Part shown: in pieces, positions 30,100-36,342 of the stretch | How positions within the stretch are numbered: the stretch's first letter is position 1 | Layout: every line of letters starts with the position of its first letter | Assembly (NCBI GenBank): GCA_001793095.1 | Contig: MGHG01000011.1 | Span: forward strand, 1 to 58,744 | Length of the DNA: 58,744 bases | Origin: Candidatus Woesebacteria bacterium RIFCSPLOWO2_01_FULL_39_23 | GTDB lineage: Bacteria; Patescibacteriota; Microgenomatia; UBA8517 | Reading direction: 5' to 3' | Program-made: the position numbers and the translations under genes | Notes under the pieces: generated by a model | What the model was told of the DNA's origin: nothing | The model's input: only the letters and a program-made list of their open reading frames with translations | The model's database searches: none

Positions 30100-33000
30100 T
30101 TATTTGTCGTCTTTCTTGAAAACGTCCACTTCAGGAGTTTTGTCCGTTTGCGGGCCTAAGACCGGTGGAGTATCGTCTTTAACACCCTCTTCCGCTGGGA
30201 TTTCGTTTTCTTGTGCGATCCTCCACGCTGGTATACTTTCTTTGCCGAGTGAGTCTTTCGACTTTGTTTCTTCAACCACGGTTTCTGCCGGCGGTATGTC
30301 TTTCTGTCTTGCCAAAAGTTCCTGGGGGCGCGTTGTTATAAGTTTATGTTCTTCAGGGGAGGCTACGATATAAATTGGTACATGGTGATTGCCGGCGAAA
30401 AATATACCCTCTCCGATGTTTGCCCCGAGAAGCAATTGTTTTTCTCCTTGTGATAGATAAAAGACGTCTCCAACCTTGTCGATTGCGGCGGGGGATTGTT
30501 TTAAAAGTACTCTTAATGCGGAGTTTGTAACGATAGCTTTACCGATATCTATTGACAGGAAGTCTTCAACGTCCTGGGTTATCGTAGTGAGTCCTAGATA
30601 GTACTTTCGGGCGCGTTTGACAATAGACCACATAAACTGAGCCGAATCAGCATACCGCATCATATGCCACGCCTCATCCACCACCAAAAGCCTGCGTTTT
30701 AAATCCCTTTTTACCTTTGTCCAGATAAAGTCAAGGATAATAAACATGGCAATGGGCCGGAGAGCGTCCTGGACCTCTTTAACGGAGAAAACAGTGAAGG
30801 GATTATTAATCTCGACATTTGTTTGCTGGTCAAATATGCCGACGAATGAACCTTTGACGAACTTTTCAATTCTGGCTGCTAAATCCATTGCTTCATCTGT
30901 TTCCATGCCCACCAAAGTTTTATAGAGGTCTTCCATTAGGGGTGGTTCTTTTGTTTGGCTGGCAGAGTCTTGGGTAATGCCTTTTCCACGATAAGTCTCA
31001 ATCAAAGCGTGGTCCAATAAGGCTTCTTGGGTTGCCGAAAGCGTTCCCATAATAACTTTAAAAAGCGAATGCAGGGAAAGGATTTTTAATCCGAGCTGAT
31101 TTTCTCCTTCCTCATATACTTGCGACAGGTCAAAGGGGTTAATTTTTGAAGGTGAGCTGTACGCGAAAGTAATGTATTGACCGCCGACGGCTTCGCTTAG
31201 GTCTTTGTATTCTGCCTCCGGGTCAATAATTATGATTTCGGTACCCAGCATCAAAGAACGTAAAGATTCGAGCTTGACGAAGTAAGAGTTGTGAACGAAT
31301 AGTCCTCCGTGACCGGCAAGAAAGACCTCGTTTTCAACCTGGAGATCATAAACGTATTTGTCTTTTGATTCAAACTTTTTTATTTTGACTACCGGATCCC
31401 AGAATAAATCAGATGTTGCAAGGGTTTTAAGAAAATTTATTTTTTCTTTAATTCTTTGCAACCCCGCCTTTTTCTCTTGGTACTTTTGGCTGATATAATC
31501 TCTTGCGTTTATGACGCTTTCGTAAAGCGGATTTTGATTGGCATTAATTAACGCGGTCCAGAGCGAATAGTTAAAGCAGGAAAGAGACTCTCCTGTTTTT
31601 TGAAATGTTCTATGGATTGCTCCAGTAACATCAGAGGCGGAATAATCATAACCGTGGGTAACAGCCGCCGCTCTCAGCGCGGTGTTAAGTTTTGGAGGAC
31701 AACCGTTTTTAATGGTCCACCAGGATTTACCTAAATTTTTCCACAGGAGAGTATTTAGGGTTTTATCCTCTCCCTCCTTGAGTATTTCTTGAACTGGTGG
31801 TAGGTTGCGCAGGGTGAGTAAACCATCCCTTTCTAAATCCTCGATTTCTTTAATTCTCTCTTCAACATGTTCAATTATGCTTAGTAGATTTTTAGATGAG
31901 GGCTTGAATATTCCCAGTTTTATTTCAGAGAATTTCTTGGGCGCCGGAATCTCGCTACTGGAGTAAAGAACGTCATATATTTCTTTAAAAATCGGCTGTA
32001 GCTCTGGTATAACATCAACGTTTGTGTTGCCTTTTTTAAGTAGTCTTTTAGTTTTTAGGTTTTTCTCTTTTGAAATAAAGCTTATGTTGTTAATGAATTC
32101 CCTGATGTTATCTTGACCTGAAATTCTAAGTCTATAGTATGTATGTTTTGTTTTATTTTTAGTGTTGGTGGCTGCTTTTTTGGCTGTTCTAGTTCGTGTA
32201 ATTATCCCAAACCTTAAAAGCAAATAAGAGAGGTCAGAGGCCAATCCTTTGGATTTTGTCGTCGCAGAAATCTCGTGTTTTTCAACTCCACCGTCTCCCT
32301 CAAAATATGCCTTAAGAAACTCTGCAGCATGTTTCTTAGACGCTGAAAACACTATTTCCGGAATTCTTTTTTCGTTGGCCTTTCCTGACGCTCCGATTAC
32401 TTTGAGGAACTTGGAAAATAAGTGGTTGCTTGTATAAATTCCTATCAATTTTCCACTCTTTTTAACCAATGAATAATTAATTTTCATTGTACTGTAAAAT
32501 TCATGCGCATCTTCCAAAACCTCGTGCGTACAGGAACTAATAAGAGCTCTCTTGGGGATTACCATTCCTTCGGATGCAAAGTAACCGAGCAGCCTGAAAA
32601 ATCCAGAGTTAAGATTTATCTTCCTTGGAATACTTTTAGTAGTTCCATGGTGTGGGTGTTTGATCCTATTATTACTTACATATAGAAAGTCGGCGCCTAC
32701 TTTTTGTAGCGTGTCTTCAACACTAATATATTTTTGCGATCTGGAATCATATAACACACGCTTGGCCAGTGGCAGGTAAGACCCGGTTTTAATAGCATCT
32801 CCTCTGACTACTTTAATTAATCCTCTCTCTAAAGCTACAAAATTGTGATCTTTTGTTGTCGTGATTGCTCTCCCGCTTTTGGTTGTAATTTTGTACAAAG
32901 TTTTTGGTGATTTTTTTCTGGCTGCGACGGTAACCACTGACCATTTTGCTTTGAGAGAATCGTTAAAGCTAAGTACTTTTATGTTTGGCTTAACTACTCC

Positions 33001-34149
33001 TTCAGATTCTTCATCAAATTTAATTACCTCTTTCTCTTTAAATACGTTTTCGACAATATTACCAATCGAATCCAGCTTAGTTTCCCCCAAGGAATTTTGA
33101 TATAAAACAGGCTCGTTCTTTTCGACCGTCTTACCGGCGCCAGAGGTCGCAAAAATCGCCATGTTACTGTTTTCCATTGAGTAGCGGTCAAAGATGATGA
33201 ACGAGTCGTTTAAGGGATTAATCCCGTATAAAACCCCCGAGTCTGAGGAAAGCTCCGCCGAAGTTAATGGAAACGTAGTTGAAAGAGACGTCGTATCCAT
33301 GTTTCTTGTAATATTTAATCTGTCGGTTGCAAATGGCAGGGTTGAGGAAAAGCCGTTTTCCATGTCGAGCACTGCGGTTTGTGCTGCCACGAGAACCGAC
33401 CCTAAAGTTGACTGTACTTGCTTTGTAACATCATTAAGATCATCCAGTGATCTCGCCGGAATGGTTATATAAAAAGCAAATTCATAAAAATGCTCGGCAC
33501 CCTTTACGAGCTCTTCCTGTAGAATTCTTGCATCGTCTAGTTTTGCCTGTGTTGAAGCATTAACAATTCTTCCGCGTTCCAGGTCGGTAGCAATTTCCGC
33601 TTCCATCTCCGCGATCTTATGTCTTAGGTCTTCGAGTACGCCTTTCGCCTCAATAGGATAAACATAGAAGGAAATATCAAGGGAGCTGTCAAAGTTAATG
33701 ATTTGTTCCAACCATCCCGGCGAAACAAATCTGGGGTAACCGGAAATAAACAGCGTTCTGAAAAAGATGTCGTTTATTTTTATAAAATCAAAATCGATCT
33801 CAATTGTTCTCGGAGCAAGCACATCCAGTAAAGTCATGCCCTGCTCGGCGATTGCTTTATTGGGGTCCATTATTTCCGGCTTAGTTTCGTTGGCAATCTC
33901 GGGAGAAATGGGAACGTCCGGTTTTACTGGTAATGGTTGGCTCTGATCCTTTTTACTGAGGCTGAACTTTGAAAATATACCGCTCTTTTTTTCAGTTATT
34001 GTTGTGGGATCCACGAAGTTGGGTATTGGAGGGACGGCCGTTTGTTGAATTTTGGCTTCCGTCTCCACGGGTTCAGTGTTGTCGAGCACTTCTTTCTGCG
34101 CTTTATCGACGCTTCCCTTTTTCTTTTTTAGAAAATCTAAAACTGCCAT
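30100..34149 (-). CDS. VirB4/TraE-like T4SS ATPase containing an intein
   Basis: Exteins join to give Walker A ATSGAGK|SYFVK; IIDPE.EY; Walker B LLVVDEAW; RKY...L..ITQ; GEG. Predicted spliced product about 735 aa. Confidence 0.92.
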   Translation of the reverse strand: MAVLDFLKKKKGSVDKAQKEVLDNTEPVETEAKIQQTAVPPIPNFVDPTTITEKKSGIFSKFSLSKKDQSQPLPVKPDVPISPEIANETKPEIMDPNKAIAEQGMTLLDVLAPRTIEIDFDFIKINDIFFRTLFISGYPRFVSPGWLEQIINFDSSLDISFYVYPIEAKGVLEDLRHKIAEMEAEIATDLERGRIVNASTQAKLDDARILQEELVKGAEHFYEFAFYITIPARSLDDLNDVTKQVQSTLGSVLVAAQTAVLDMENGFSSTLPFATDRLNITRNMDTTSLSTTFPLTSAELSSDSGVLYGINPLNDSFIIFDRYSMENSNMAIFATSGAGKTVEKNEPVLYQNSLGETKLDSIGNIVENVFKEKEVIKFDEESEGVVKPNIKVLSFNDSLKAKWSVVTVAARKKSPKTLYKITTKSGRAITTTKDHNFVALERGLIKVVRGDAIKTGSYLPLAKRVLYDSRSQKYISVEDTLQKVGADFLYVSNNRIKHPHHGTTKSIPRKINLNSGFFRLLGYFASEGMVIPKRALISSCTHEVLEDAHEFYSTMKINYSLVKKSGKLIGIYTSNHLFSKFLKVIGASGKANEKRIPEIVFSASKKHAAEFLKAYFEGDGGVEKHEISATTKSKGLASDLSYLLLRFGIITRTRTAKKAATNTKNKTKHTYYRLRISGQDNIREFINNISFISKEKNLKTKRLLKKGNTNVDVIPELQPIFKEIYDVLYSSSEIPAPKKFSEIKLGIFKPSSKNLLSIIEHVEERIKEIEDLERDGLLTLRNLPPVQEILKEGEDKTLNTLLWKNLGKSWWTIKNGCPPKLNTALRAAAVTHGYDYSASDVTGAIHRTFQKTGESLSCFNYSLWTALINANQNPLYESVINARDYISQKYQEKKAGLQRIKEKINFLKTLATSDLFWDPVVKIKKFESKDKYVYDLQVENEVFLAGHGGLFVHNSYFVKLESLRSLMLGTEIIIIDPEAEYKDLSEAVGGQYITFAYSSPSKINPFDLSQVYEEGENQLGLKILSLHSLFKVIMGTLSATQEALLDHALIETYRGKGITQDSASQTKEPPLMEDLYKTLVGMETDEAMDLAARIEKFVKGSFVGIFDQQTNVEINNPFTVFSVKEVQDALRPIAMFIILDFIWTKVKRDLKRRLLVVDEAWHMMRYADSAQFMWSIVKRARKYYLGLTTITQDVEDFLSIDIGKAIVTNSALRVLLKQSPAAIDKVGDVFYLSQGEKQLLLGANIGEGIFFAGNHHVPIYIVASPEEHKLITTRPQELLARQKDIPPAETVVEETKSKDSLGKESIPAWRIAQENEIPAEEGVKDDTPPVLGPQTDKTPEVDVFKKDDK
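31288..33129 (-). mobile_element. 614-aa intein with LAGLIDADG (DOD) homing endonuclease
   Basis: Starts TVEKNEPV after Walker A Lys. Block B TTKDHNF; endonuclease motifs LLGYFASEG, FLKAYFEGDG, LLLRFGI; blocks F/G VYDLQV...LFVHN; +1 residue Ser. Confidence 0.9.
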
Positions 34150-34852: not shown

Positions 34853-35899
34853 TTATGTTTTGAATTGGTTAATTTCTGTACTTCCTGATTTTGCCCATAT
34901 CGCAACGGGAGGAATTATTTTGTCTTGTGCATCAAAATAAACCTGGTCAAATTCAAAACCGTCCTTTTCGGTAATTATTTCATACCGACCATCGAGAAGG
35001 GGTGTGGCAATCGAAAAATGACCCAACCTGTTTGTTTTAAGAGCCCTGACAGGCCTGCCTTCTGAATCTCTTATTTCCAGGATTGCACCCTCTATTATTT
35101 TCCCGTCAGGTGCTAAAACTTGGCCGACGATAATATTGGCGCGGGTTGGCGGGATGGGAGGCATTTCGTCTTGCGAGAACTGAGCCATTTTGGTTGCAGT
35201 AAAAGAAGTTGTCGCCATCGGCGTAAAGGAGGGGGGCGTTGTTTCCATCTTTGGCTCTTCCTGTGTTTTTTGCCACCGGCTCTGGAGAGCCTCAGGCTCG
35301 GAGAGCCCTTTGTGTATCACTGTGGTTGATTTTGTTTGTGGTACGTTAATTGCAGCTCCACCCCGTACCGGCTGGCCGGGTCGATATGTATGCAGTGGTG
35401 TTGCTGTTATGACGACAGTTGTTCCCGGGGCAATAAAATTCTGCGTCATTTTTGACAAAAAGCTTTTTTCTTTTTCTTCGAGTTTCTCGACGCTTGGCGT
35501 TGTCTTAATGACAGGCTCTAGTAGTTCGGCTCTTTCTTCCTTTTTTTCAGCTATGACAACCGCCGGCGCTCCTGCAGCCCCTTCTTCCAGAGCAAAAAAA
35601 TCTTTGATTCCGCCCTTTCTCCAAACAAAGTACGTAGGCGAGTAGATGGACCGGAAAAATATAACAATCCAGGTTGAAAGCGCCCTGTCCTCGATCGGCA
35701 GAAATGCGAGCGCAACACCGAACATAAAAGAAAGAATTATTAATGGCCATTTAATTAAAGAGTGCAAGGGTGACGCATAAAAAAGAAGTGAAATTAGAGC
35801 TCCGCCGGCAAGTTGCGAGAACTGCTTAAGAGTCATATCTCCCACCAGCTTAAAGCTGTATGAACTTATTTGCTGCGGAATTGGGTGTTGTTCAGGCAT
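34853..35899 (-). CDS. PrgI family protein with long linker and C-terminal carboxypeptidase-regulatory-like beta domain
   Basis: HPIPQQI..Y.FKLVG.MTLKQF, two TM helices, PIEDR.L..W; C-terminal G.V...G.....A...I.D..G......TN..G.F. ATG 35899 preferred. Confidence 0.82.
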   Translation of the reverse strand: MPEQHPIPQQISSYSFKLVGDMTLKQFSQLAGGALISLLFYASPLHSLIKWPLIILSFMFGVALAFLPIEDRALSTWIVIFFRSIYSPTYFVWRKGGIKDFFALEEGAAGAPAVVIAEKKEERAELLEPVIKTTPSVEKLEEKEKSFLSKMTQNFIAPGTTVVITATPLHTYRPGQPVRGGAAINVPQTKSTTVIHKGLSEPEALQSRWQKTQEEPKMETTPPSFTPMATTSFTATKMAQFSQDEMPPIPPTRANIIVGQVLAPDGKIIEGAILEIRDSEGRPVRALKTNRLGHFSIATPLLDGRYEIITEKDGFEFDQVYFDAQDKIIPPVAIWAKSGSTEINQFKT

Positions 35900-35907
35900 T
35901 GTATTTA

Positions 35908-35941
35908 GAGCATAAGAGTAAAAGAGTGGAAAAGTATAAGG
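35908..35941. repeat. 8-nt tandem repeat array at the 3' flank of the four-helix gene
   Basis: gcataaga gtaaaaga gtggaaaa gtataagg; inverted relative to 36345-36382. Confidence 0.6.
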
Positions 35942-35967
35942 AAATCCACTCCTACACAAATTACCTT

Positions 35968-36342
35968 TTACTTTTTATTCCTTAAACTTTTTTGGTAACT
36001 GAAAAGTAATTTTCTTACTTCTATCAAGAGGTTTGAAATTTCATTATAGTCGCCATTCTCCAGATATTTAAGATCGAACGCAATGTCTATTTGAACAGTT
36101 AATTCCAAGGCTGAGGCGATGCTTATATTAATGAACCGGACAAATTCTTTACGAGTCCGAAAATAACCTTCAACAATATTTGAGACAATTGAAATTGCGG
36201 CTCGGCGAGATTGTGGAATTAATACGAACTTTTCCTCAATTGGAAATAGCTTCGTTAGTTTATATGTTAATAAAACCAAATCTTTGGATTTTTGATAAAC
36301 ATATAATTTTTTATAAGATTGAATGTTGATTTTTTGCTCCAT
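35968..36342 (-). CDS. Four helix bundle protein (TIGR02436 / 23S-IVP / bAvd-like)
   Basis: SYKKL.VYQKS..L....YKLT..FP.EE.F.L..Q.RRAAISI.SNI.EG, F..FINISIASA.EL..Q..IA.DL.YL. Confidence 0.9.
   Translation of the reverse strand: MEQKINIQSYKKLYVYQKSKDLVLLTYKLTKLFPIEEKFVLIPQSRRAAISIVSNIVEGYFRTRKEFVRFINISIASALELTVQIDIAFDLKYLENGDYNEISNLLIEVRKLLFSYQKSLRNKK

What the first reader, a model, noticed from the sequence alone, without database searches (positions are those of the whole stretch)
31288..33129. VirB4 P-loop intein begins with Thr rather than Cys or Ser
Seen: GGT AAG | ACG GTC GAA (GK|TVE) ... CAC AAC | TCT (HN|S). Block B His and block F Asp are present, and there is no class-3 Trp/Cys signature. 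Known: class 1 inteins normally use Cys1 or Ser1, and ACG is one change from TCG (Ser). Insertion between the Walker A Lys and Ser makes ATPase activity strictly splicing-dependent. Inferred: either a rare Thr1 splicing intein, or a slow or conditional switch gating the secretion ATPase.
Basis: partly seen in the sequence, partly recalled or inferred. Interest (0 to 1): 0.62.

Follow-up and report, generated by a model that had tools for sequence, protein, structure and literature searches.

The report
Threonine-first intein in VirB4 Walker A
The only secretion-system motor gene (VirB4) of this ultra-small groundwater bacterium is split in its ATP-binding loop by a self-splicing intein that starts with threonine instead of the textbook serine or cysteine, and relatives show that threonine has replaced serine at this site several times without harming the host gene, so it very probably works.

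Summary
Window 30100-34149 (- strand) encodes a 1349-aa VirB4-like ATPase. A 614-aa LAGLIDADG intein (31288-33129) sits between the Walker A Lys and Ser: GAGK|TVEKNEP...FVHN|SYFVKLE. Residue 1 is Thr (ACG). Blocks B, F and G are intact and there is no class 3 WCT triplet.

The codon is not an assembly slip. The exact protein is on record in 49 collection blocks, and two fetched contigs are DNA-identical.

Thr1 is not unique to this genome. Of about 157 inteins with a GxGK|X junction, mostly patescibacterial VirB4, 130 start with Ser, 19 with Cys and 8 clusters with Thr. An intein tree needs at least 5 Ser/Thr switches. Thr1 carriers use ACG, ACC or ACA. Two of them have saturated synonymous sites yet 93-97% identical exteins. 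The intein and extein here show no decay.

Best reading: an active class 1 oxyester intein with Thr1 as nucleophile (about 0.75). Nothing supports or excludes a conditional switch.

The held literature lists only Cys1 or Ser1 in nature; Tori et al. 2010 state that Thr1 had not been observed. I rate this a new variant of a known kind, of moderate interest.

Two side leads: Lys replaces the "NX" His, and Phe or Met sits at block B position 12 in all Thr1 members.

The parts
30100..34149 (-). virB4-like gene (1349 codons plus stop). It encodes the precursor N-extein + intein + C-extein and is the only VirB4 in the genome.
   Evidence: ORF list and translation. NCBIfam NF045971 conju_CD1110 scores 350.4 bits against a cut-off of 325; Pfam P-loop_TraG. 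There is a single match in the window's own genome.
33130..34149 (-). N-extein (aa 1-340), ending in the Walker A stretch ATSGAGK (33130-33150).
   Evidence: It is colinear with intein-less homologs up to the Lys.
33127..33129 (-). Intein residue 1: Thr, codon ACG. It is the proposed N-O acyl-shift nucleophile.
   Evidence: The DNA is identical in independent assemblies.
32740..33129 (-). N-terminal splicing (HINT) half, intein residues 1-130, containing blocks A and B.
   Evidence: NCBIfam TIGR01445. HMMER alignments to PI-PkoII and the TFIIB mini-intein. The AF2 model has pLDDT above 90 here. Every column conserved at 80% or more is kept, except position 1 and K123.
32911..32925 (-). AARKK (intein 69-73). 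R71-K72 occupies the place of the [R/K]-His 'NX' motif of Ser1 oxyester inteins, so Lys stands where His normally does.
   Evidence: Alignments to 2cw7 and 5o9j. Column counts. Motif definition from PMC10189870.
32833..32874 (-). Block B, GRAITTTKDHNFVA. It holds T92 (B:7), H95 (B:10), N96 and F97 (B:12).
   Evidence: T92 and H95 are invariant in 64 aligned sequences.
32005..32622 (-). LAGLIDADG homing endonuclease core. Motif 1 is GFFRLLGYFASEG (32560-32604) and motif 2 is FLKAYFEGDGG (32284-32328), each with its acidic residue.
   Evidence: Pfam LAGLIDADG_3, E 8.5e-20. E187, G188, E277, G278, D279 and G280 are conserved. Foldseek hits to PI-PkoII, TliVMA, PI-PfuI and I-DmoI.
31417..31998 (-). 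Conserved all-helical region of about 190 aa (intein 378-571) between the endonuclease core and the C-terminal splicing strands. Its role was not determined.
   Evidence: Secondary structure and pLDDT of the AF2 model. Conserved columns P410, S411, W463, W470 and others. No Pfam hit.
31288..31407 (-). C-terminal splicing half, holding block F (DKYVYD595LQVENEVFLAG) and block G (HGGLFVH613N614).
   Evidence: NCBIfam TIGR01443.
31285..31287 (-). Ser+1 (TCT). It is the first C-extein residue and also the Walker A Ser of the spliced protein.
   Evidence: The +1 residue is Ser in 111 of 112 related inteins.
30103..31287 (-). C-extein (aa 955-1349): the remainder of the P-loop ATPase domain, including Walker B LLVVDEAW.
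   Evidence: It is 75-83% identical to intein-less relatives.

Best explanation
This is a functional, mobile class 1 intein (HINT splicing domain plus nested LAGLIDADG homing endonuclease) in the Walker A loop of the single VirB4 ATPase of a Woesebacteria-type patescibacterium.

Proposed mechanism:
1. The side-chain hydroxyl of Thr1 attacks the Lys(-1) carbonyl in an N-O acyl shift. Block B T92 and H95, block F D595 and probably K72 at the NX position assist.
2. Ser+1 takes over the N-extein by trans-esterification.
3. N614 cyclises and releases the intein.
4. An O-N shift yields GAGK-SYFVKLE, the intact Walker A.

Thr1 is a naturally tolerated alternative to Ser1 in this intein scaffold. It arose from Ser by a single base change and has done so repeatedly.

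What is shown: the anatomy, the fold, the recurrence of Thr1, and purifying selection on hosts that carry Thr1.
What is inferred: that splicing occurs, that Thr1 is the nucleophile, and the roles of K72 and F97.
For: 1. All class 1 catalytic blocks are present and there is no class 2 or class 3 signature.
2. AF2 gives mean pLDDT 93.1 and pTM 0.87. The best PDB matches are PI-PkoII (E 3e-23), the TliVMA intein and PI-PfuI. The splicing domain superposes on the TFIIB mini-intein at 1.4-1.5 A.
3. The predicted spliced junction equals the sequence of 20 of 20 intein-less homologs.
4. Thr1 occurs in 8 distinct clusters of about 157 inteins at a GxGK|X junction. All 14 and all 4 variants of two of these clusters keep it, including KKQ85596.1 and KKQ40923.1.
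5. The tree of 114 inteins needs 7 Thr1 changes, of which at least 5 are forced by well-supported branches.
6. The Thr codons differ: ACG, ACC and ACA.
7. P0007 and P0008 both carry Thr1. Their synonymous sites are saturated, yet the exteins are 93-97% identical with dN 0.04-0.06.
8. The intein here deviates at 2 of 103 conserved columns, against a median of 3. Its extein deviates at 6 of 315, within a range of 0-13.
9. This is the only VirB4 in the genome. T4SS genes are essential for epibiotic growth in a cultivated patescibacterium (PMC12102498).
10. The S1T mutant of the Tli Pol-2 intein splices, as stated in PMC2807308.
Against: - No splicing has been measured for any of these inteins.
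- For this lineage alone, the time since the Ser-to-Thr change is unknown, so a very recent inactivating change cannot be excluded from its sequence.
- One Thr1 relative (P0046, contig L024) has a frameshift inside the intein.
- The selection argument for P0007 and P0008 assumes that Thr1 was present in their common ancestor.
Confidence: 0.75

Rival explanations
1. The intein splices, but Thr1 (a poorer, beta-branched nucleophile) makes it slow or dependent on conditions. It would then act as a post-translational gate on the T4SS ATPase.
For: - Conditional splicing is documented for other inteins, including P-loop inteins (reviewed in PMC10663303; clustering of inteins in P-loops in PMC4760082).
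- A secondary alcohol should be a weaker nucleophile than a primary one (general chemistry).
- Thr1 always occurs with a particular block B context, T-T-x-D-H-N-F/M, which could reflect tuning.
Against: - Nothing here measures rate or conditionality.
- Thr1 is scattered as singletons or small clades among Ser1 sisters. That pattern looks like near-neutral exchange, not a selected regulatory state.
- No ecological or lineage correlate was found.
Confidence: 0.12
2. In this lineage the Ser1-to-Thr change is a recent inactivating mutation. The precursor does not splice, VirB4 is dead, and the element has begun to decay.
For: - C1 or S1 substitutions often abolish splicing in characterised inteins (PMC10189870 notes that position 1 is refractory to change).
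- One Thr1 relative carries a frameshift.
Against: - The intein and extein here show no excess of changes at conserved columns.
- The endonuclease motifs are intact.
- The identical allele is on record in 49 collection blocks from several sources.
- This is the sole VirB4 of a genome rated 99% complete, within an otherwise intact T4SS cluster.
- Other Thr1 lineages persist with highly constrained exteins.
Confidence: 0.08
3. Splicing bypasses residue 1. Either Ser+1 attacks the N-junction directly (class 2-like) or an internal nucleophile does (class 3-like), and Thr1 is only a spectator.
For: [quoted passage not shown]
Against: - There is no WCT triplet: the positions are F97, D595 and V612.
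- The known class 2 mechanism uses a Cys at +1 for the direct attack (PMC10663303), whereas this intein has Ser+1.
- About 95% of the inteins at this junction keep Ser or Cys at position 1, and none has a non-nucleophile there. The position is therefore constrained to a nucleophile.
Confidence: 0.04
4. The ACG codon is a sequencing or assembly error for TCG.
For: It is one base away from TCG, and the window comes from a metagenome-derived genome.
Against: - The exact protein is on record in 49 collection blocks, and 23 contigs carrying it were read. Two assemblies from different sources are identical over 6 kb.
- Seven other clusters have Thr1 independently.
Confidence: 0.01

Closest known systems
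Ser1/Ser+1 (or Thr+1) 'cysteine-less' class 1 inteins with a nested LAGLIDADG endonuclease, for example PI-PkoII / Tko Pol-2 (PDB 2cw7); also the Mja and Mvu TFIIB mini-inteins (5o9j, 5o9i)
   Same: These are the best sequence and fold matches. They share oxyester chemistry at both junctions, block B TxxH, block F Asp, a terminal HN, and a two-motif LAGLIDADG endonuclease.
   Different: Position 1 is Thr here, not Ser. The NX-motif His of those inteins (R-H) is Lys here (R71-K72). This intein also has an additional helical region of about 190 aa.
Tli Pol-2 intein S1T mutant (Hodges et al. 1992, as cited in PMC2807308)
   Same: It is a Ser1 archaeal-type intein in which Thr at position 1 still supports splicing, which gives chemical precedent for Thr1.
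   Different: That variant is a laboratory mutant, whereas Thr1 here is natural, recurrent and retained. I could not read the original paper because it is not held.
P-loop (Walker A) inteins of DnaB, MCM, RFC and RadA, and the VirB4 inteins listed by Novikova et al. 2016 (PMC4760082)
   Same: The insertion lies inside the ATP-binding loop, so host activity depends on splicing. VirB4 is a known intein host, with 5 cases in Firmicutes and Proteobacteria.
   Different: This is the patescibacterial VirB4 clade. The 2025 survey of the patescibacterial T4SS never uses the word intein.
Ser1 and Cys1 inteins at the same VirB4 site in Microgenomatia, Parcubacteria and other Patescibacteria (for example P0031 and P0201, and genomes G003, G019, G004)
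   Same: They share the insertion point (GxGK|X...HN|S), the architecture and about 50-59% identity.
   Different: They start with Ser (about 83%) or Cys (about 12%). Leu is the commonest residue at block B position 12 in them and is never found in the Thr1 members.

Membership tests
Class 1 intein (HINT splicing domain) | Nucleophilic residue (Cys, Ser or, by Perler's definition, Thr) at intein position 1 | tested here: met
   Thr341 (ACG) directly follows the Walker A Lys. The definition including Thr1 is in PMC5222942. Other reviews list only Cys or Ser.
Class 1 intein (HINT splicing domain) | Block B Thr (B:7) and His (B:10) | tested here: met
   T92-K-D-H95; both are invariant in 64 aligned sequences.
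Class 1 intein (HINT splicing domain) | Block F Asp (F:4); block G penultimate His and terminal Asn; Cys, Ser or Thr at +1 | tested here: met
   D595, H613, N614 and Ser+1.
Class 1 intein (HINT splicing domain) | HINT fold | tested here: met
   AF2 pLDDT 93.1. Foldseek matches PI-PkoII at E 3e-23, and the splicing domain matches the Mvu TFIIB mini-intein at rmsd 1.4-1.5 A.
Class 1 intein (HINT splicing domain) | In-frame insertion in a conserved host motif, with intein-less homologs colinear across the junction | tested here: met
   20 of 20 intein-less homologs read GAGKSYFVKLE. 56 of 61 genomes searched (the window's own plus 60 relatives) lack the insert.
Class 1 intein (HINT splicing domain) | Demonstrated protein splicing through a linear (oxy)ester at residue 1 | not testable with these tools
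   There is only indirect evolutionary evidence.
Class 3 intein | WCT triplet (Trp B:12, Cys F:4, Thr G:5) with a non-nucleophilic residue 1 | tested here: not met
   The positions are F97, D595 and V612.
Class 2 (KlbA-like) intein | No position 1 nucleophile (Ala1); Cys+1 attacks directly | tested here: not met
   The residues are Thr1 and Ser+1.
Ser1 'oxyester' intein subgroup (Pasch et al. 2023) | NX motif [R/K]-His upstream of block B | tested here: not met
   The aligned position is R71-K72. Lys is found in 113 of 130 Ser1 and 8 of 8 Thr1 inteins at this junction. His is found in 54 of 64 related Ser1 inteins at other sites.
LAGLIDADG homing endonuclease | Two LAGLIDADG motifs, each with a catalytic acidic residue, in an alpha-beta-beta-alpha-beta-beta-alpha core | tested here: met
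   The motifs are LLGYFASE187G and YFE277GD279G. Pfam PF14528, E 8.5e-20. Foldseek hits to I-DmoI and PI-PfuI. Cleavage activity was not testable.
VirB4-like conjugal transfer ATPase, CD1110 family (MPF-FATA type, patescibacterial clade) | NCBIfam NF045971 above its cut-off; Walker A and B motifs; T4SS gene neighbourhood | tested here: met
   350.4 bits against a cut-off of 325. The neighbours are PrgI/VirB3-like, TraC/TrsD-like and M23 peptidase genes.

The most novel reading that the evidence does not exclude
The VirB4 P-loop intein family of Patescibacteria may be a natural scaffold in which Ser1 and Thr1 are functionally interchangeable. The reason would be a differently built oxyester active site: Lys in place of the NX His, with Thr1 accepted only alongside Asn at B:11 and Phe or Met (never Leu) at B:12, which would make room for the Thr methyl group. 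If so, these would be natural threonine-nucleophile inteins with an identifiable set of permissive residues, usable to design cysteine-free and serine-free splicing tools.
Probability: 0.3. Interest if true: 0.6.

Novelty: new variant of a known kind. Interest (0 to 1): 0.45.

Why it matters
Intein reviews up to 2023 state that class 1 inteins begin with Cys or Ser. Tori et al. 2010 say explicitly that Thr1 had not been seen in nature, although an S1T mutant splices.

A natural set of Thr1 inteins, embedded among close Ser1 and Cys1 relatives at the same site, gives matched comparisons. These can show how the active site tunes a secondary-alcohol nucleophile.

The work also adds cysteine-free scaffolds for protein engineering.

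Finally, it shows that the near-universal T4SS motor of Patescibacteria, which is essential in a cultivated species, is a recurrent intein host. The 2025 T4SS survey did not mention this.

The practical surprise is limited. Thr1 was already anticipated chemically, and other notes of this scan report Thr1 inteins in other genes.

Tried and rejected
- **Read-level check.** I substituted independent assemblies.
- **dN/dS between the two Thr1 carriers P0007 and P0008.** Synonymous sites are saturated and NG86 dS is undefined, so only 'dN very small against saturated dS' can be stated.
- **Phylogenetically corrected covariation of Thr1 with block B position 12 (Phe/Met).** Only 5 independent pairs exist. 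The direction is consistent (3.4 the same way, 0 opposite), but the sign test has median p 0.25. The raw Fisher value of 7e-5 is inflated by relatedness. I keep this as a hint only.
- **Enrichment of Thr1 at this site against related inteins elsewhere.** The counts are 8 of 157 against 0 of 88, Fisher p 0.053, which is not significant.
- **Origin of Thr from the extein by shifted recombination.** Rejected, because intein-less alleles always have Ser (20 of 20) and +1 is Ser in 111 of 112.
- **Alternative genetic code.** Rejected, because the genome has tRNA-Thr(CGU). ACG also encodes intein position 90, where Thr is common in homologs.
- **Hodges et al. 1992 (S1T mutant).** The paper is not held, so it is cited only through PMC2807308.
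- **Literature search for a described natural Thr1 intein.** None was found in the held library. This is absence in that library, not proof of absence.


Full report
**Observation.** The - strand ORF 30100-34149 encodes 1349 aa. It matches the VirB4-like CD1110 family (NF045971, 350.4 bits against a cut-off of 325) and Pfam P-loop_TraG. It is interrupted by a segment matching Pfam Intein_splicing and LAGLIDADG_3 and NCBIfam intein_Nterm and intein_Cterm. The junctions read ATSGAGK|TVEKNEPVLYQ and GGLFVHN|SYFVKLE. The intein is 614 aa (aa 341-954, window 31288-33129).

Twenty intein-less homologs all read ATSGAGKSYFVKLE. This fixes both boundaries and shows that the spliced product restores a canonical Walker A. 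Block B (T92-K-D-H95), block F (D595) and block G (H613-N614, Ser+1) are present. The class 3 positions are F97, D595 and V612, so there is no WCT triplet.

The exact 1349-aa protein is on record in 49 blocks of the public collection (NCBI, JGI, ENA, Logan), and 23 contigs carrying it were read. Two fetched copies from different sources are identical to the window over 6050 nt. The genome encodes tRNA-Thr(CGU) and tRNA-Ser(CGA), so decoding is standard. An assembly slip is very unlikely.

**Context.** The genome is 1.13 Mb in 18 contigs and is rated 99% complete. Earlier notes of this scan call it a Woesebacteria-type groundwater patescibacterium with a T4SS cluster in this window. The named homologs I retrieved agree: Woesebacteria, Microgenomates, Shapirobacteria, Collierbacteria, Gottesmanbacteria and Parcubacteria. 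The neighbouring genes are PrgI/VirB3-like, TraC/TrsD-like and M23 peptidase genes. This is the only VirB4 in the genome. VirB4 is present in 2,417 of 3,035 patescibacterial genomes. T4SS genes are essential for epibiotic growth in Ca. Southlakia epibionticum. That survey never uses the word intein (PMC12102498).

**How common is the intein, and how common is Thr1?**
- Five of 61 genomes searched (the window's own plus 60 relatives) carry an intein at this site. The other four start with Ser (three) or Cys (one).
- Three database searches gave about 157 distinct proteins with an intein after GxGK. Of these, 130 start with Ser, 19 with Cys and 8 with Thr. Most are VirB4; a few Cys1 cases look like other P-loop proteins.
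- The Thr1 set is: this genome; P0046; P0007; P0008; P0182; P0195 (KKQ85596.1, Woesebacteria); P0223; and P0251 (KKU82501.1, Parcubacteria).
- All 14 variants of the P0223 cluster and all 4 of the P0195 cluster keep Thr1.
- The Thr codons are ACG (here and P0007), ACC (P0008) and ACA (P0046).
- Among about 88 related inteins at other sites in the same protein set, none begins with Thr. The contrast is not significant (p 0.053).

**Independent origins.** I built a maximum-likelihood tree of 114 of these inteins with position 1 and three block B columns masked. It needs 7 Thr1 changes, of which at least 5 are forced by branches with SH-aLRT of 95 or more. A smaller full-length tree already forced 2. 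Thr1 is therefore a recurrent minority state reached from Ser by one base change. It is not a single clade and not a one-off.

**Is Thr1 compatible with function?**
- P0007 and P0008 both carry Thr1 and are sisters with 100% support. They have diverged until synonymous sites are saturated (NG86 dS undefined). Their exteins remain 93% and 97% identical (dN 0.064 and 0.037), and their splicing domains also stay constrained. A VirB4 that could not be spliced would not be held under such constraint. The argument assumes that Thr1 was ancestral to the pair.
- The intein here differs from the family consensus at 2 of 103 columns conserved at 85% or more (K123 for R, V580 for I). The median is 3 and the range 0-43. 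The other Thr1 inteins score 0-6.
- Both LAGLIDADG motifs keep their acidic residues.
- The extein here deviates at 6 of 315 columns conserved at 90% or more, mid-range among 24 VirB4 homologs (0-13).
- AlphaFold2 with a 64-sequence alignment gives mean pLDDT 93.1 and pTM 0.87. Foldseek returns PI-PkoII (E 3e-23), the TliVMA intein and PI-PfuI. The splicing domain matches TFIIB mini-inteins at 1.4-1.5 A.
- One caveat: the P0046 contig has a frameshift between the N-splicing and endonuclease parts. This may be an assembly error on a 2.4-kb contig or real decay.

**Mechanism.** The most likely mechanism is the ordinary class 1 pathway with oxyesters at both steps. Thr1 Oγ attacks the Lys(-1) carbonyl, Ser+1 trans-esterifies, N614 cyclises, and an O-N shift follows. 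Chemical precedent comes from Tori et al. [quoted passage not shown] I could not read the original 1992 paper.

**Two active-site leads.**
- *NX position.* Pasch et al. 2023 described an 'NX' motif, [R/K]-His, conserved only in Ser1 oxyester inteins. Its His lies within hydrogen-bond distance of Ser1 (PMC10189870). In HMMER alignments to PI-PkoII and the Mja TFIIB intein, that R-H aligns with R71-K72 here. Across my set, the column is His in 54 of 64 Ser1 inteins at other sites. At this junction it is Lys in 113 of 130 Ser1, 8 of 8 Thr1 and 12 of 19 Cys1 inteins. K72 is invariant in the 64-sequence alignment.
- *Block B context.* All 8 Thr1 inteins have T-T-x-D-H-N-[F/M]. B:12 is Phe in 6 and Met in 2, and never Leu. 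Leu is the residue in 78 of the 149 others. B:12 is the position where class 3 inteins need Trp to activate the N-junction (PMC2807308), so it plausibly lies near residue 1. With only 5 independent contrasts the trend is not significant (3.4 the same way, 0 opposite). I report it as a hypothesis.

**Rivals.**
- *Slow or conditional 'gate'.* This is compatible with everything here but supported by nothing specific. The scattered phylogenetic pattern looks more like near-neutral exchange.
- *Recent inactivation in this lineage.* It is disfavoured by the lack of decay, by the wide recovery of the identical allele, and by this being the sole VirB4.
- *Bypass mechanisms (class 2 or 3).* They lack their signatures. 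Position 1 is a nucleophile in every intein found at this junction.
- *Sequencing error.* Effectively excluded.

**Comparison with what is known.** VirB4 inteins and P-loop inteins are known (PMC4760082). Perler's definition of class 1 nominally includes Thr1 (PMC5222942). Reviews of 2020, 2021 and 2023 list only Cys or Ser at position 1. I found no paper in the held library describing a natural Thr1 intein. Earlier notes of this scan are unchecked AI notes. They report Thr1 inteins in gmd, NrdD, QueE and TerL of other genomes. I did not test them. If they are right, Thr1 is more widespread than the literature says, and this case is another instance. Its distinguishing feature is repeated Ser/Thr switching inside one family of inteins at a single site, as opposed to a Thr1-fixed family.

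**Verdict.** I rate it a new variant of a known kind, of moderate interest (0.45). The decisive experiment is a simple splicing assay with T1S, T1C and T1A variants plus K72 and F97 variants.

Noticed in passing
window 32911-32925 (-), intein R71-K72: At the position of the published 'NX' motif His of Ser1 oxyester inteins ([R/K]-H), this intein family has Lys. The counts are 113 of 130 Ser1 and 8 of 8 Thr1 members, whereas related Ser1 inteins at other sites have His in 54 of 64. I found no description of such an NX variant in the motif paper (PMC10189870).
   Followed up: partly
window 32833-32874 (-), block B: All 8 Thr1 inteins share T-T-x-D-H-N-[F/M]. Block B position 12 is never Leu, although Leu is the commonest residue in the Ser1 members (78 of 149 non-Thr1). 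This may be a permissive or compensating residue for the Thr methyl group. It is not significant after correcting for phylogeny.
   Followed up: partly
G000 contig C12, about 35877-36092 (+), locus L028: The genome holds a second intein, in a UvrD/PcrA-like helicase. Its junctions are VVGDDSQ|CLPPS...GIVVHN|SVYKF, so it starts with Cys. I saw no LAGLIDADG motif by eye.
   Followed up: no
window 31417-31998 (-), intein residues 378-571: A conserved, confidently modelled all-helical region of about 190 aa lies between the endonuclease core and the C-terminal splicing strands. It has no Pfam match and might be a DNA-recognition domain.
   Followed up: no
L024 (JGI 3300041077 contig, 2453 nt), about 900-940: The Thr1 relative P0046 has a frameshift between the N-splicing domain and the endonuclease. 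The link between them also looks shorter there. The downstream intein and extein are otherwise open and conserved. This is either an assembly error or very recent decay.
   Followed up: partly
protein P0002 (JGI contig of 59,673 nt) compared with window 30100-30200: A near-identical allele of the same gene ends differently: its last ~35 aa differ from the window protein's last ~56, and it is 1328 aa long against 1349. This suggests a frameshift in the low-complexity C-terminal tail in one assembly or strain.
   Followed up: no
window 35968-36342 (-): A gene for a 23S rRNA-intervening-sequence-type four-helix protein (PF05635, E 2.9e-30) sits inside the T4SS cluster, next to the PrgI-like gene. 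Another first-reader note of this scan already flags it.
   Followed up: no
relatives G003, G004, G019, G051 (loci L003-L006): Only 5 of 61 genomes searched (the window's own plus 60 relatives) carry the VirB4 P-loop intein. The closest extein relative (G032, 83-85% identity) lacks it, while the closest inteins come from other lineages. The pattern fits homing or horizontal spread followed by loss.
   Followed up: partly
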